From a virus (Duplodnaviria > Heunggongvirae > Uroviricota > Caudoviricetes), in the IMG/VR virus record IMGVR_UViG_3300048620_000004: 22,049 bases of DNA; one strand, given 5' to 3'. Below are positions 3,390 through 9,300 of this stretch, piece by piece (the first letter of the stretch is position 1; the number at the start of each line of letters is the position of its first letter). The position numbers are program-made.

Positions 3390-6300
3390 GTGTGAATGTG
3401 GATTTTGTACTACGAAATAATTGCCCTTATTATACTATAAAAGGCAACACTAAAAAAGAAAACATTTCATCTTCTGCTGTTTTAACAACAGCCCTGCATA
3501 CTTCTCTTCTAAAAATCACAACGGTAATTAATGAAATTAATTCTATTTATCCCTTTGATGTCTCAGTTGTTATTCCGGTTCACAACCGAGAAACCCTTAT
3601 TCTCGAATGCATTAAATCTTTAAACAATCAGACTATAGATAAAAATTGTTTTGAAGTTATTTTCATTGATGACTGTTCCACTGACAGGAGCATTGCCGCC
3701 ATTGAATATAACATTTCGAGAGAAATAAATTATCGTATTATCCGTAGAGCAGTTGGTTCAGGGAATGCATCAGCGCCGCGAAATGAGGGAATAAAATCCG
3801 CAAAAGGTCGCTATGTGTTTTTCTTAGACTCTGATGATTCCATTCACTCTGACTTACTGTCCGATGGTATTCAGATGGCTTATAAAAACAATAGTGACAT
3901 TGTATATTTCAAGCAGGTTTCCTCTACAGGGAGAGGGGTTCCTGTACGCCCATTTAAGGCAGACACGAATAAAGCAGATATTATAAAAAACCATCTTTTT
4001 AGATCATTAAAAATCTTCAAGTTCTTTAAAAGAGAGTTGCTAATCAATAACAACATCTTATTTAACCCATCAATTTCAGTCTATGAGGATATGCTTTTTT
4101 CTTGCCAGAGCCTAACTGTAGCTAATACGATATCTATACTGGCAAGAAAGGGCTACTACTCTCTGAATCGCCATGAAGAACCACATCTATCTAAAACATC
4201 TTTCTCCATTAAACAAAGAGCCTTGGTATTACAAACAGGTTTGATTTATATCTTATCAAGCAATAAAAATGAAGCAGAAATAGTAAAAATGTTTAATGCA
4301 TGGCTGGTTATTTGCGTTGAGCACTTGGCATCCATATTATCCAAAAAAAGTTTAACAACTAATGAGAAGTCTCACGTTTTTAACTTGATACATAAATCAC
4401 TCTTACCATATACAGGGCTTGTAAATGAGTCCCAAATATATCCCGCACAAAGAGAGCTTGTCAGTTGCTTAATCTGTGGAGATTATTCTTCTTTTTGCGA
4501 AAAAATATAAAAACACTTAACTACAGATACTCCTAACTTTGTATCTGACGCCCCTCACCCTAAATTAAGGGTGAGGGGCAAAAAAAATAATTATTTGATG
4601 TTATATTTATATGCCATCACATCTTTTAACTCCAGTTGTTACGGGGAGGACAGTGACTCGTATCAACTAAAGTTTGATCTGTAGATAACACTATTTTAAG
4701 CAGATACTCATTAAGGCTTGTTTATTCTGAAGTCTCCAACTTCATCAAACGACGATTTAAGTCAACAAAGCGTTCCATTAACAAATCCACCTGGCTGACA
4801 ACAGCACGTAGACACCACCAGAGAAGCTCCTCTTTCCGGAAGCGATAACGGCTTCCTGCTTCGGTTGCAGGGCGAACAAGAACCCTTTCCGCCTGTCGGG
4901 TAAGCACACGAGTTGTCCCGCTCAACAGCTCCCCTTCATCCGAATAAATCGCTGGCTGAACCGGAATATCTTCATACTCTTCCGGTATATCTTCGTACTG
5001 TGCCTCCTCCGCTTCCCACGAATCCAGACAAAATGCGCTGTATTTCCGCCAGTCCAGACCGTGTTTCTCCATCACCGCTATCGCGGCCTGGACTGTCGGC
5101 CCGGCGTGCAGACGCGCGTCCTCGCCCTCCTCCTCAATTCTCTGTAACCAGCGCCACACGCCCGGAAGCCGTGCTATTTCTGCAAATGCCGCGTTTTCGG
5201 CTGCCGTCGCATCGCGCGGTGTATCCTTTAACGTCGCATCCGACACAACGGTCGGCGAGTTGCAGAGATACACGCTCCGGAACGCTTTGTTGGGCGCACC
5301 CAGGTCGCTGGTATTGTTAACCGATGGCCGGAATGCACCGTTAATATCTGTATCCATCTGCATGAATGCAGTGCCGTCACTACGGGCTGCAATTACATAA
5401 GCGTCAGCAGAATCGTCATAAATACCCAGATTCCCGGCTGTTGATACCTGGAAAGCTCCCGCCTTCAGCGTGGTGCTGATGGCCATGCGCTTCTGGGTTT
5501 CGTCATCCGATTTAATATTCACGCCCTGCAGGTATGCCACATTCCAGCGATTTGGCGATGACCCCAGATTCATTGCCTTGTCCTGGTCGGGATGAAATGC
5601 CGGCGAGACCGGACTCAATAATACAGACCAGGTCTCACTGCCATCGGTACAATAAAGCCTTGTGCGCCCCGCCGACTGAGTATCGTTCATTGAGTAAAGG
5701 TTAATCCCGCCACCGCTCAACAAATCCACGTCAGCGCGTATTTCCAGACAATCGTGCACGGTGTTCAGTCGGTGTTTCCACTGAACGAAGCGGCCTGTGT
5801 ATTCTCCGGTTCGGAACGCATCCCCGTACAAACGAAAAACAGCAGCAGAAGTGTCTGTATCCGGAGCCTCCTTTCTGACCTCAAATAACGGGCGATGCGA
5901 GCGCAGATTCTGCTCATAGGCTGCCACCTGGAAGTCTTCATTGGGTGACAGGGCAATATTTACAGCATTGGGACTCAGAAAAAGGCTAGCATGGCTGTCA
6001 GGAAACGCCACGCCGGAGTCCACCAGATAGCCTGTGCCGTCGTAAGCCTCCACGGAAACCACAGCTTTGCTGCGTTTTGTCGCCACGCCACACGTATAAG
6101 ACTTCGTGGCATCATATTTCGTTGCAGCCGCCGTTCCATATGCTGTAGGCGTCCAGTAAGATGGATTCACCGGGGAACGGCCAGAAAAATTTGTTGCACG
6201 TGCTGCAAAGTATGCCCCCTCAAAAGAAACCACATCTGCTGTCTGACACCAGAAATCCATATCGAGCAGATACAGTTTTCCGTTATGAAGAGCCAGCCCT

Positions 6301-9300
6301 TCGGCTTCCTGCAAAACGGGATACCCCAGCTCTGCATTCCCCAGCATTTTCTGGCGGCCATACCTGGCACGAACGCCATCCACATTGAACTGTCTGACAA
6401 CTTCGCCCGTTGACAGGTTATATACAACAATGCGGTGAGTCAGAAATACGCCTGTATAACCGTAATAAGCAAACAGATAATGACCATCGCTGGCCATCCC
6501 CTGAAATGCCTGCGACACCATTGACTGGGTGGACAGATAAATCCGGTGTTTAAACGTCAGAGAAGCGCGATCGAAAACATAAACTGTGCGGCGGTCATCC
6601 CTGTTGTAATGAAGATGGACGGCTTCATTACTTGACTGAACAATCAACAGGCTTCCGTCTACCGACAATGCCACCGTTATAATTTCATCCCCGGTAAAAA
6701 AGTCAGAGGTGAAAATCTCCGTACGGGTGACATCTGTCAGACTGGTGTCAGCCCCATTCCAGTTGATGATATTCACACCCTTGCCGTCAGCGGTCGGGGT
6801 ATACAGCATCACGCGACCGTCTTCACATACAGCCCCGATACTCTGGTGACCAATATCAGCGAAAACGGGAGAAAACGAAATGACCGTCGGGTTTTCGTTT
6901 TCTCCGTCAGGGTTAAATGTCGTTTCAACAATCCTTACGCCACCCGATACAGGCTGATGCAGAAACATTCTGGTTCCCTGCGGCGTATCACAGATACAGA
7001 ACCCCTGACTCATATTATCCGCACCGTCAAAAATCCCGGCGTAGTCAATATCGTGGACAACTTTATGCTGAAGAACCACATCATCAATGACAGTACGATG
7101 AAAACTGGATATGGCTTTATCGACGTAATCCTGCGTCGCCATCACCGTGCTGGCATCAATACTCAGCTCAACAGACGCCACGTTACTGACAATAATAACC
7201 ATGCGGCAGGTCTGCGCACGCCCGGAGCCTTCAGCCAGTTCAGGCTTATAGCTTTCTACCATGTTAGCGACCGCAATCAGTGTTCCGGCATCGTCATACA
7301 GACCAAGTTCACGCATCCAGAAGCCGCCCACTTCTGGCGGTACAACCAGTTCAGCCACGATATAGTTTTTATTCTTGTTATCCACGCTGACTTTATTCAG
7401 GGCGTGACGCCAGACCTCATGCACCAGTTTCGTCTGACCAGCATCCGGCACCGGCAATTTGCCATTACCGTCACCCACGGCCATTGCAGACAGGGTTACT
7501 TTTTTCCCGCCGGGGACAGTGGCGGCTGCCAGCTTTGCGGCTCCGGCAGTAGTGATAACGGTTTTAAATTTCGTGCTCATTGTTTCTCACTTATCCGGGA
7601 TAAACAGTAATAACATCACCATCACAGACCACACCGCCTGTATACAGATAGCCGGGAATGTCCTGGATAATGTTCAGACCGATAAGGTGGCGACTTGCGG
7701 GTTTGGCATCGGCAATCAGCCGTTCCATTTCCAGATACATCTCCTCCGTGATGCCGCTTTCCAGTACGCCGATATCAAGGCGGAAGGTTCCGGGCGGGTC
7801 GTTTGTCTCCCACCATTCCTTTACGTTAATTAGATAGCCTAGCGGCTCCACCACACGCCGGATTGCACCTATAGTGCCTTTATGACAGTGGATGAAATAC
7901 GCATCGCGGATAACGGCGCGTTTTGTCGCTTCCGGCCACTTTTCATCCCATCTGTCGACCGAAAACGCCCACGCCAGCCACGGCAGCAGATTTGCCGGGC
8001 AGGTGTCCGGGTTCCACAGCTCACGAATACTGACCGGTGTTTTTTCAATTTCCGCACAGGCTTTTGCGGCGGCGACCTCAAGCGGTGATGAGCCGGTCGG
8101 CAGCAGTCGCGAATCACTCATCCGAGCCTCCGGTCACGACGCGGTATTCAGTACAGAAAGACGCCTGCGTGCTGTTAAGCACGATATCGGCCAGCGGTGC
8201 AGCCAGTTCGACACGCTGCACGCCTTCCACATGCAAAGCGGCATAAATGGCAGACAGACGGATGTCGCGCCCCAGCCGGTGCTGTGCCGTGATGTACGCT
8301 TCCAGTTTTTTCACGGCAGCAGCGCGGATGGGTTCGCTTTCGGGACCAGGGTAAAGGTAAAGCGTGGCGTTTATCTGGTATTCAACAATGGCGGCAGACT
8401 GCACGGTCACGCGGTCGGCCACCGGTCTGACGTCCTCGCCATTCAGGGCGTTACGCACCACCGCCAGCAGGTCTTCGGATGCGACACCGTTATTCTCACG
8501 TGACAGCACAGAGATGGTGACGCAGGCCGGAGACGGACTGGTGACAGAGATATCCGCGACACGCCCGTCAGCACTGCGACCATGATACTGATAGGCACCC
8601 ACCGACCCGGCGACGCTTAAACCTTCAAACGCCTGCTGAATACGCAGACGATAATCGGTATCAGATTCCATCACTGCCGGTGTCGGCGGGATAGTCGAAT
8701 TATCTGCCGGGGTGATAGTCAGACGCGTGGTGTTGTAATTGGCACCAATCACATCAAGGTCATTACCCGCGGCACAGGCCAGCATCACCGCCCGTGCGGC
8801 CTCATTCACACGCTGACGCCAGATAAGCTCACGATAAGCATTTTCCTCCAGCAATTTGACGAGAGGCTCGGATTCCAGCGTCAGGGTACGGGCGACCGCC
8901 TCCTGCTGGGCTTCCGGGTAAAGGGAAATCAGTGTCGCCTTGCGTTCGGCGAGAATGGTTTCAAAGTCCAGCTCCTCGACCACATCCGGTGCGGGTAGCT
9001 GGTTCAGGTCGATAATCGGCATGGTTTCAACTCACAGGGATGGTTAACGAAAGTGGCTGGCCGGTGTCGTTGTGCTGGCCGGTTAAGGTGACCGTCATTC
9101 GCCCGTCAAAACTGCGCTCAGTGGTGACGGATGACAGGGTGACGCGGGGTTCCCATTTCAGCACCGCCATGTAACAGGCGACCTTAATCTGCAACTCAAG
9201 CGCCGGGGTCTGCGGCTGGTCAATCATTGACGCCAGCAACGAGCCGTAATCACGACGCATCACCCGCGAGCCGACCGGTGTGCGCAGGATATCGCCGATA

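What the first reader, a model, noticed from the sequence alone, without database searches (positions are those of the whole stretch)
4722..7580. Tail fibre with P2 H-type N-terminus, divergent receptor-binding region and a probable self-cleaving C-terminal chaperone; no gene G
Seen in sequence: the N-terminal ~150 aa are H-like, but the protein runs to 952 aa. The last ~173 aa start with SDATLKD (Ser/Lys dyad spacing typical of peptidase-S74 intramolecular chaperones of tailspikes) and end in a coiled-coil-like segment. No separate fibre assembly gene follows; the glycosyltransferase cargo sits there instead. Established knowledge: fibres with a C-terminal intramolecular chaperone trimerise without a separate assembly protein and autocleave at the conserved Ser. 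Inference: a horizontally exchanged receptor-binding module, possibly with glycan-binding or depolymerase activity, whose receptor may relate to the glycan made by the adjacent phase-variable GT.
Basis: partly seen in the sequence, partly recalled or inferred. Interest (0 to 1): 0.5.

Follow-up and report, generated by a model that had tools for sequence, protein, structure and literature searches.

The report
Chimeric P2 tail fibre, self-chaperoning
This gene in the defective P2-like prophage of E. coli B joins a P2 baseplate anchor to a borrowed propeller-shaped host-recognition module with its own built-in, probably self-cleaving folding chaperone; this is an ordinary example of phage tail-fibre module swapping, and the receptor is still unknown.

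Summary
ORF 4722-7580 (-) encodes 952 aa. Residues 1-151 match the P2 gpH N-terminal domain (PF12571, 5e-57) and are 93-94% identical to gpH. Residues 780-842 pass the Peptidase_S74 threshold, and Ser780/Lys785 align with the catalytic dyad positions of T5 pb1 and other solved chaperone domains. No gpG exists; only a 32-nt scar of its 3' end remains (2195-2226).

New points:
- The window is the defective P2-like prophage of E. coli B. Two deletions remove head, lysis and tail genes, so no fibre can be built here. An intact sibling prophage in strain 4069 has the same gene and also lacks G.
- Residues ~165-949 are a tailspike cassette, 77% identical to N4-like phage Pollock and 99% to a different P2-family prophage in ST131.
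- The link to the glycosyltransferase is unsupported. The cassette occurs in 87 of 5426 genomes and the transferase in only 29, with different GC content. Four carriers have four different O-antigen clusters.

This is a new member of a known kind. Autocleavage, enzymatic activity and the receptor are untested.

The parts
4722..7580 (-). Complete tail fibre/tailspike gene (952 aa plus stop)
   Evidence: ORF list and translation. Full-length match to PHROG 19921 'tail spike protein'. Annotated in E. coli B as 'phage tail-collar fiber domain-containing protein'.
7116..7580 (-). Residues 1-155: P2 gpH-type N-terminal baseplate anchor
   Evidence: PF12571, 1-151, E 5.4e-57. 92.6-94.5% aa identity to gpH of P2-like phages over 1-163. 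DNA homology with L-413C ends at 7119.
6036..7073 (-). Residues ~170-515: five-bladed beta-propeller, the presumed glycan-recognition domain
5244..6035 (-). Residues 516-779: beta-rich region, presumed trimeric stalk and tip of the mature protein
   Evidence: The monomer model is poor here (pLDDT <50). Weak PF12219 endosialidase-stalk hit at 660-686 (E 0.025). Residues 710-779 align with the pre-cleavage region of T5 pb1 (4uw8) and other solved fibres.
4725..5243 (-). Residues 780-952: Peptidase_S74 C-terminal intramolecular chaperone domain
   Evidence: PF13884 at 38.1 bits against a cut-off of 22. phmmer hits to 4uw8 (9e-15), 7y5s, 6eu4, 9vvr, 3gw6 and 3gud. The family profile matches the same chains at 1e-19 to 2.5e-29, running to the end of the pb1 chain. 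Foldseek hit to 3gw6_E at 2.7e-06.
5226..5243 (-). Ser780 (codon 5241-5243) to Lys785 (codon 5226-5228): predicted catalytic dyad and cleavage site
   Evidence: The S-D-x-x-L-K motif aligns residue for residue with the solved homologues. It is conserved in 9 of 10 homologues that carry the domain; one has Cys. Codons verified.
4728..4835 (-). Residues 916-951: long terminal alpha-helix (coiled-coil-like)
   Evidence: DSSP on the AF2 model gives helix 756-791 in model numbering, which is protein 916-951.
2195..2226 (-). Scar of the 3' end of tail-fibre assembly gene G
   Evidence: 28 of 32 nt identical to the last 32 nt of L-413C gene G, with the stop codon in register (NPEWLGIPQ* against NPEWPEMPQ*). 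It lies directly next to the syntenic FI upstream block.
2300..2560 (-). Frameshifted remnant of a small membrane-protein gene (phrog_1443), not a fibre chaperone. In ST131 prophages the intact gene directly follows the same fibre module.
   Evidence: PHROG hit at 3.2e-07, against 1.9e-55 for the intact ST131 copy. 53% aa identity over 34 residues. 70.7% DNA identity over 167 nt, with the N-terminal part readable in another frame.
3109..4510 (+). Convergent low-GC glycosyltransferase cassette with a (CAGC)n tract at 3263-3389. It is a neighbour of the fibre gene, not shown to be functionally linked.
   Evidence: ORFs. GT2 domain in the fused 513-aa form of strain 4069. Repeat copy numbers 31.8, 66.8 and 11.5 in three genomes. 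37% GC.

Best explanation
The gene encodes a modular, trimeric receptor-binding protein built from two unrelated pieces.

**Anchor.** Residues 1-~155 are the P2 gpH anchor that plugs into the P2 baseplate.

**Imported cassette.** From about residue 160 the original gpH shaft and tip, together with the downstream assembly-chaperone gene G, were replaced by a tailspike-type cassette. This cassette also circulates among N4-like, T7-like and P22-like podophages and is distantly homologous to Bacillus phage GA-1 gp12. It has three parts:
- a five-bladed beta-propeller (~170-515) that most likely recognises a surface polysaccharide;
- a beta-rich stalk or tip (516-779) that probably folds only as a trimer;
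- a Peptidase_S74 intramolecular chaperone (780-952).

**Mechanism (inferred by homology).** The three chaperone domains associate through their helical and coiled-coil parts. They template trimerisation of the stalk and are then released by Ser780/Lys785-dependent autoproteolysis. This would leave a mature fibre of about 779 aa and make a separate Tfa/gpG chaperone unnecessary.

**What is shown and what is inferred.** Domain composition, homologies, dyad conservation, loss of G and the exchange history are shown. Trimerisation, cleavage and glycan binding are inferred. Whether the propeller also cleaves or deacetylates its glycan is open, at about even odds.

**Status in this window.** In E. 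coli B the prophage has lost its head, lysis and most tail genes. The intact gene is therefore a relic or recombination reservoir. It should be functional in intact sibling prophages such as that of strain 4069.
For: - **Domains:** Pfam PF12571 and PF13884 both score above their thresholds.
- **Dyad:** Ser780 and Lys785 align with the dyad positions in 4uw8, 7y5s and 6eu4. The family profile covers whole chaperone domains at E 1e-19 to 2.5e-29.
- **Conservation:** the S-D-x-x-L-K motif is kept across homologues of 49-97% identity.
- **Model:** the AF2 model has a confident propeller, a long terminal helix and a match to 3gw6.
- **Exchange:** residues 161-949 are 77% identical to the Pollock tail spike and 49% to T7-like fibres. 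The module is 99% identical but carried on a different P2-family anchor in ST131. Relatives carry P2, T7, P22 head-binding and TSP1/gp66 anchors.
- **GA-1 gp12:** it matches the propeller by sequence (2e-10) and the whole model by fold (6e-32).
- **No G:** there is no gpG in the window and only a 32-nt scar. G is also absent in two independent prophage lineages with this module.
- **Defective prophage:** two deletions were mapped against the intact 4069 prophage.
Against: - No experiment: cleavage, trimerisation and binding are all inferred.
- The model is a monomer with shallow alignment (13 sequences). Residues 523-786 are below pLDDT 50, so the stalk architecture is unknown.
- The protein itself is below threshold for the Pfam propeller family (11.6 against 23.7 bits).
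- The nearest structural neighbours (phi11, 80alpha, P68 RBPs) are, to my knowledge, binding platforms without enzymatic activity. A depolymerase role therefore has no direct support.
- Four lysogens with 98.4% or higher identity in the module carry four different O-antigen clusters: O7, O86, O45-S88 and O25b. No receptor can be proposed from host distribution.
Confidence: 0.75

Rival explanations
1. The fibre and the adjacent phase-variable glycosyltransferase form one functional unit. The transferase modifies the glycan that the propeller recognises (seroconversion of the phage's own receptor).
For: In complete E. coli genomes the transferase is always next to this fibre module, 29 of 29. 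It resembles GtrB-like O-antigen conversion proteins in PHROGs (1.4e-31). It sits at the classical P2 cargo locus between G and FI (and my knowledge of P2 Z/fun). Its repeat tract varies between genomes at 11.5, 31.8 and 66.8 copies.
Against: All 29 copies are at least 99.3% identical and belong to one prophage lineage, so the linkage may be simple descent. The module occurs without the transferase in 58 of 87 genomes and in lytic phages. GC content is 37% against 52%. The decayed phrog_1443 gene suggests the cassette was inserted later between the fibre gene and its earlier neighbour.
Confidence: 0.2
2. The propeller is a purely lectin-like binding platform with no enzymatic activity, as in the staphylococcal phi11, 80alpha and P68 receptor-binding proteins. 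The protein is then a fibre and not a depolymerising spike.
Confidence: 0.45
3. The S74-like domain has lost catalysis and stays attached as a structural C-terminal cap, or the protein still needs an external chaperone encoded elsewhere.
For: No experimental data exist for this protein. One homologue has Cys instead of Ser at the nucleophile position. Some relatives of the propeller (P0048, P0049) lack the domain altogether.
Against: The Ser/Lys dyad and surrounding motif are intact and conserved. The domain scores above the Pfam threshold. No Tfa/gpG-like gene lies next to the module in three different genomic contexts. The small downstream gene in ST131 is a hydrophobic membrane protein with no Pfam chaperone match.
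Confidence: 0.08
4. The gene is still used in E. coli B itself, for example as part of a tailocin-like particle made from the remaining tail genes.
For: The ORF is intact and differs by about one nucleotide over the 2,379 bases compared from the copy in an intact prophage. The baseplate genes V, W, J, I, the sheath gene and ogr are also intact.
Against: The tube gene is truncated and fused to a D fragment. E, E', T (tape measure), U and most of D are deleted, and so are R and part of S. A contractile tail cannot be assembled without tube and tape measure (established knowledge). The near-identity to the intact prophage indicates recent decay, not selection.
Confidence: 0.03

Closest known systems
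Phage T5 L-shaped tail fibre pb1, C-terminal receptor-binding domain plus intramolecular chaperone (PDB 4UW8)
   Same: It is the best solved sequence match (9.4e-15, residues 710-868). The pre-cleavage tip and the chaperone both align. The S-x4-K dyad is in register; the crystallised chain has Ala at the Ser position, which I recall as the S1264A mutant. The family profile covers the chain to its end.
   Different: pb1 has no propeller and is attached to a siphovirus. Its tip binds polymannose O-antigen (text, citing Garcia-Doval 2015). Nothing indicates the same specificity here.
Phage K1F endosialidase endoNF (catalytic propeller, stalk and C-terminal chaperone; PDB 3GW6 for the chaperone)
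   Same: The order of parts is the same: anchor, beta-propeller, stalk, S74 chaperone. There are sequence (2.1e-05) and fold (2.7e-06) matches to the chaperone, and a weak hit to the endosialidase stalk family.
   Different: The endosialidase propeller is six-bladed and sialidase-like (my knowledge). Here the propeller matches five-bladed folds, and no endosialidase propeller or beta-barrel family is detected.
Bacillus phage GA-1 gp12 neck appendage protein precursor (chaperone solved as PDB 3GUD)
   Same: It is the only characterised-lineage protein that matches both the propeller by sequence (24.7% identity, 2e-10) and the chaperone. Its predicted structure aligns over the whole model (5.7e-32). 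The whole cassette therefore appears homologous.
   Different: It belongs to a phage of a Gram-positive host, has a different N-terminal attachment and shares only about 18-25% identity. The receptor and activity of its propeller are not known to me.
Staphylococcus phage phi11 receptor-binding protein Gp45 and relatives (80alpha, P68, NF5; PDB 5EFV, 6V8I, 6IAB, 9M7X)
   Different: Those proteins have a helical stem and a C-terminal 'tower' instead of a stalk plus S74 chaperone. They bind wall teichoic acid (my knowledge), which E. coli lacks. Sequence identity is about 13%.
Phage P2 gpH tail fibre with gpG assembly chaperone
   Same: The N-terminal 155-163 aa are the same domain at 93-94% identity, and the gene sits in the same position after V-W-J-I.
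   Different: Everything after aa ~160 is unrelated to gpH, and G is gone apart from a 32-nt scar.
Tail spike of N4-like phage Pollock (KM236242), and tail fibres of T7-like phages vB_EcoP_R4596, G3A1 and CC1
   Same: They carry the same cassette at 77% (Pollock) and ~49% (T7-like) identity over residues 161/167-949.
   Different: They have different N-terminal anchors: TSP1/gp66-type and T7-type. They are lytic podophages. None has a described receptor in the papers I could read.

Membership tests
Peptidase S74 / C-terminal intramolecular chaperone domain (PF13884) | Sequence match to the family model above the curated threshold | tested here: met
   38.1 bits against a cut-off of 22, E 2e-09, covering profile positions 1-58 of 58 at residues 780-842.
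Peptidase S74 / C-terminal intramolecular chaperone domain (PF13884) | Conserved Ser nucleophile and Lys five residues downstream (S-x4-K) | tested here: met
   Ser780 and Lys785 align with the corresponding positions of 4uw8, 7y5s and 6eu4. The motif is conserved in 9 of 10 homologues with the domain.
Peptidase S74 / C-terminal intramolecular chaperone domain (PF13884) | Position at the extreme C-terminus of a trimeric fibre or spike; helical domain ending in a long helix; fold like 3GW6 | tested here: met
   The domain is the last 173 aa. Helices are predicted at 793-839 and 916-951, with pLDDT 65-85. Foldseek hit to 3gw6_E at 2.7e-06. The model is only a monomer of moderate confidence.
Peptidase S74 / C-terminal intramolecular chaperone domain (PF13884) | Autoproteolytic release, and a requirement of the domain for trimer folding | not testable with these tools
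   Needs expression of wild type against S780A, K785A and a deletion of 780-952.
P2 gpH-type tail fibre (with gpG/Tfa chaperone) | N-terminal tail-collar/baseplate attachment domain PF12571 | tested here: met
   E 5.4e-57, full profile. 93-94% identity to gpH.
P2 gpH-type tail fibre (with gpG/Tfa chaperone) | gpH-like shaft and C-terminal tip | tested here: not met
   tblastn with L-413C gpH finds nothing significant beyond aa 163. DNA homology stops at 7119.
P2 gpH-type tail fibre (with gpG/Tfa chaperone) | Adjacent tail-fibre assembly gene (G) | tested here: not met
   No gpG match in the window apart from a 32-nt 3' scar. None is annotated in the intact sibling prophage.
Phage five-bladed beta-propeller receptor-binding platform (PF21311) | Sequence match above the curated threshold | tested here: not met
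   11.6 bits against a cut-off of 23.7, E 0.21. Four of 57 distant relatives do match, best 1e-06.
Phage five-bladed beta-propeller receptor-binding platform (PF21311) | Five-bladed propeller fold most similar to the phi11-type RBP platform | tested here: met
Endosialidase tailspikes | Six-bladed sialidase propeller with inserted beta-barrel (PF12217, PF12195) | tested here: not met
   No hit to either family. Only a weak stalk hit (PF12219, E 0.025) and the shared chaperone.
Beta-helix depolymerase tailspikes (pectate-lyase-like) | Right-handed parallel beta-helix catalytic domain | tested here: not met
   No pectate-lyase family hit for this protein. The confident part of the model is a propeller. 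Residues 523-786 are unresolved.

The most novel reading that the evidence does not exclude
The five-bladed propeller cassette could be an uncharacterised class of coliphage receptor-binding enzyme. It would target a surface glycan that is not O-serogroup specific, since near-identical copies sit in O7, O86, O45 and O25b strains, including ST131. In the P2-like lineage, the linked repeat-controlled glycosyltransferase would switch that same receptor on and off, giving lysogens phase-variable immunity to their own phage type.
Probability: 0.1. Interest if true: 0.6.

Novelty: new member of a known kind. Interest (0 to 1): 0.3.

Why it matters
This is a clean, datable example of how a temperate myovirus swaps its host-recognition module. 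The swap replaced both the fibre tip and its separate chaperone gene with a self-chaperoning cassette shared with three podophage families, and a scar of the lost gene remains. The practical interest lies in the propeller module:
- It is rare among isolated phages (15 of 50,697 records).
- It is present in 1.6% of complete E. coli genomes, including ST131.
- No receptor has been assigned to it.
- It has a defined anchor/module junction near residue 160 that could be used for engineering P2-type phages or tailocins.

None of this changes current understanding of S74 chaperones or of fibre modularity.

Tried and rejected
- NCBIfam gave no hit for the protein.
- A PDB sequence search with the single protein found only the C-terminal domain. 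The family profile added only weak propeller hits.
- Literature searches returned no description of this fibre, its receptor or the receptors of its homologues. I searched for the E. coli B prophage fibre, Pollock, R4596, Gally/PGN829, five-bladed propeller tailspikes, and S74 in P2-like phages.
- I checked whether the 94-aa gene that follows the module in ST131 could be a fibre chaperone, and rejected it. It is a hydrophobic membrane protein of phrog_1443 with no Pfam match. It is widespread just after tail-fibre genes of lambdoid phages.
- I looked for a terminator between the convergent fibre and transferase genes. The simple scan found none.
- I tried to infer the receptor from lysogen O-types. 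Four carriers had four different clusters, so no inference is possible from this small sample.
- A first attempt to scan Pfam over 60 relatives exceeded the size limit and was repeated with 57.
- I did not use the second structure job. A monomer model cannot resolve the trimeric stalk, and no fold-search jobs remained.

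
Full report
**1. Where the window comes from**

The region is 99.7-100% identical to the chromosome of E. coli B strains (B, REL606, ATCC 11303 and derivatives). In NZ_CP115178 it is a P2-like prophage between trhP/ogrK and yegR.

Comparison with a 99.9%-identical, apparently complete prophage at the same site in the blood isolate 4069 (L003) shows two deletions in the window.
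- The first joins the tail-tube gene to the 3' part of D. It removes E, E', T and U. The junction is near window 563-577 and produces the fused ORF 84..863.
- The second joins a fragment of S to the 3' part of the portal gene. It removes R, the lysis genes, X, L, M, N, O and P. The junction is near window 11103-11109.

The prophage is therefore defective. From my own knowledge, E. coli B is known to carry a defective P2-related prophage.

**2. The observation**

ORF 4722..7580 (-) is 952 aa.
- *N-terminus:* Pfam finds PF12571 (P2-type tail-collar fibre N-terminal domain) at 1-151 (E 5.4e-57).
- *C-terminus:* Pfam finds PF13884 (Peptidase_S74, 'chaperone of endosialidase') at 780-842, with 38.1 bits against a curated cut-off of 22.
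- *Motif:* SDATLKD starts at Ser780, so 173 residues follow the putative cleavage point, and Lys785 lies five residues downstream.
- *Solved relatives:* phmmer against all solved structures hits only this C-terminal part. The hits are T5 L-shaped fibre pb1 (4uw8, 9.4e-15), a Klebsiella phage fibre (7y5s), two tailspikes (6eu4, 9vvr), the K1F endosialidase chaperone (3gw6) and the GA-1 neck appendage chaperone (3gud). In the printed alignments Ser780 and Lys785 fall on the S/K of the 'SDARLK'-type motif.
- *Family profile:* a profile of 60 relatives matches the same chains at 1e-19 to 2.5e-29 and covers pb1 to the end of the chain.
- *Conservation:* the motif is conserved in homologues down to 49% identity. 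One homologue has Cys instead of Ser.
- *Model:* the AlphaFold model of residues 161-952 has moderate confidence for 790-952 and a 36-residue terminal helix. Foldseek matches it to 3gw6 (2.7e-06).

**3. No gene G**

tblastn with gpG of L-413C finds nothing in the window except a 10-aa match. At the DNA level this is 28 of 32 identities to the last 32 nt of G, with the stop codon in register (window 2226..2195). It lies immediately beside the block homologous to the FI upstream region.

Homology to H stops at window 7119, about aa 154. So the segment from H codon ~155 to within 32 nt of the end of G was replaced.

The intact 4069 prophage also has no G. So does a different P2-family prophage in ST131 that carries the same module.

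**4. What replaced it**

Residues 161-949 are 77% identical to the 'tail spike protein' of the N4-like phage Pollock. They are ~49% identical to the tail fibres of a group of T7-like coliphages and a Raoultella phage.

In the large protein collection the same module is found behind several anchors: P2-type, T7-type (PF03906) and TSP1/gp66-type (PF18668). Among more distant relatives it is also found behind a P22 head-binding domain. The P22-like prophage Gally of strain LF82 is one example.

In ST131 the anchor is only about 55% identical, while the module from residue ~163 onward is 99% identical. This places the exchange junction at the end of PF12571.

An exhaustive HMMER search with residues 164-819 found 232 relatives in 1.84 billion cluster representatives, only 16 of them below 1e-30. 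Among 50,697 phage records only 15 contain the propeller part. Among 5426 complete E. coli genomes, 87 carry the module.

**5. Fold of the module**

Model residues 10-352 (protein 170-512) are confidently predicted, with pLDDT mostly 75-92 and about 20 beta-strands.
- *Foldseek:* the same picture.
- *Sequence:* the protein is sub-threshold for PF21311 (E 0.21). Four relatives reach E down to 1e-06, and the family profile weakly hits the staphylococcal RBPs.
- *GA-1 gp12:* among predicted viral structures, the best non-trivial match over the whole model is the GA-1 neck appendage protein (5.7e-32). It also matches the propeller by tblastn (24.7% identity, 2e-10).

The propeller-stalk-chaperone cassette is thus an old unit found in phages of both Gram-positive and Gram-negative hosts.

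Residues 523-786 are poorly modelled. This is expected if they fold only as an intertwined trimer. The only hints are a weak match to the endosialidase stalk family and the alignment of 710-779 with the pre-cleavage region of pb1.

No beta-helix, glycoside hydrolase, lyase or esterase family is detected in this protein.

**6. Mechanism**

By homology with the studied S74 proteins (K1F endosialidase, T5 pb1, GA-1 gp12; established knowledge), the C-terminal domains should drive trimerisation of the stalk and then cut themselves off at Ser780 with Lys785 as general base. This explains why G could be lost.

The propeller is the likely glycan-recognition site. Residues conserved across 57 relatives (Q192, H245, K267, Q360, E425, E427) could be binding or catalytic residues.

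I cannot decide between a lectin-like platform and an enzyme. The nearest solved folds favour the platform. Use of the module as the tailspike of P22-like and T7-like podophages favours an enzyme.

**7. Link to the glycosyltransferase**

In complete genomes the transferase occurs in 29, always ~200 bp from this module. All copies are at least 99.3% identical and belong to one prophage lineage. The module occurs without the transferase in the other 58 genomes and in lytic phages.

The cassette is 37% GC against 52% for the fibre module.

In ST131 the module is directly followed by a 94-aa membrane-protein gene (phrog_1443). In the window a frameshifted remnant of that gene lies at ~2300-2560, beyond the transferase cassette. 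This suggests the cassette was inserted later between the two.

Four lysogens with near-identical modules carry O7 (IS1-disrupted), O86 (wzy frameshifted), O45-S88 and O25b clusters.

The proposed receptor/transferase coupling remains a hypothesis with no specific support.

**8. Verdict**

The finding is real and largely correctly read. It is a chimeric P2-type fibre with an imported, self-chaperoning, propeller-type receptor-binding cassette, sitting in a defective prophage.

It is a new member of known kinds (modular RBPs and S74 chaperones). The receptor, enzymatic activity and cleavage are untested. I found no publication describing it. Interest is modest.

Noticed in passing
window 3263-3389 (with ORFs 3109-3420 and 3392-4510, + strand): There is a perfect tetranucleotide tract, (CAGC)n, of 31.8 copies here, 66.8 in strain 4069 and 11.5 in strain 2D. 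In 4069 it fuses the short upstream ORF to the GT2 glycosyltransferase as one 513-aa protein with an (ASQP)n linker. In the window the two ORFs are out of frame. Long, length-variable tetranucleotide tracts are, from my own knowledge, unusual in E. coli.
   Followed up: partly
window ~2300-2560 (-); L004 6657-6941 (-): The window carries a frameshifted remnant of a 94-aa hydrophobic protein gene (phrog_1443, function unknown). The intact gene directly follows the same fibre module in ST131 prophages. In 72 phage records, mostly lambdoid, it lies at about 21-24 kb in many of them, which I take to be just after the tail-fibre genes.
   Followed up: partly
window 84-863 (-) and ~10945-11861: Two deletions make the prophage defective: a tube-D gene fusion (junction ~563-577) and an S-fragment/portal-fragment junction (~11103-11109). 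Compared with the intact 4069 prophage they remove ~4.3 kb and ~8.3 kb.
   Followed up: yes
window 12177-15866 (-): A low-GC (32-34%) three-gene cassette is annotated in RefSeq as an 'ABC-three component system' (AAA ATPase, middle component 4, ABC-3C protein). It lies between the portal remnant and the replication gene A. Strain 4069 has a DUF7380 protein at the same place, so this is a variable cargo or defence hotspot.
   Followed up: no
window 10090-10875 (+): A low-GC 261-aa predicted membrane protein (phrog_2407, unknown function) sits between baseplate gene V and the S remnant. It is also present in the intact sibling prophages.
   Followed up: no
proteins P0046, P0048, P0049 (relatives, not in the window): One T7-anchored homologue has Cys in place of the S74 nucleophile Ser. 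Two relatives have the propeller but a different, S74-less C-terminus.
   Followed up: no
L004 (E. coli O25b:H4-ST131, NZ_OX637961 1.53-1.55 Mb): The same receptor-binding module (99% aa identity from residue ~163) sits on a different P2-family anchor in a prophage of the pandemic ST131 lineage. That prophage has a different tail-gene arrangement. About 58 of the 87 carrier genomes have this variant.
   Followed up: partly
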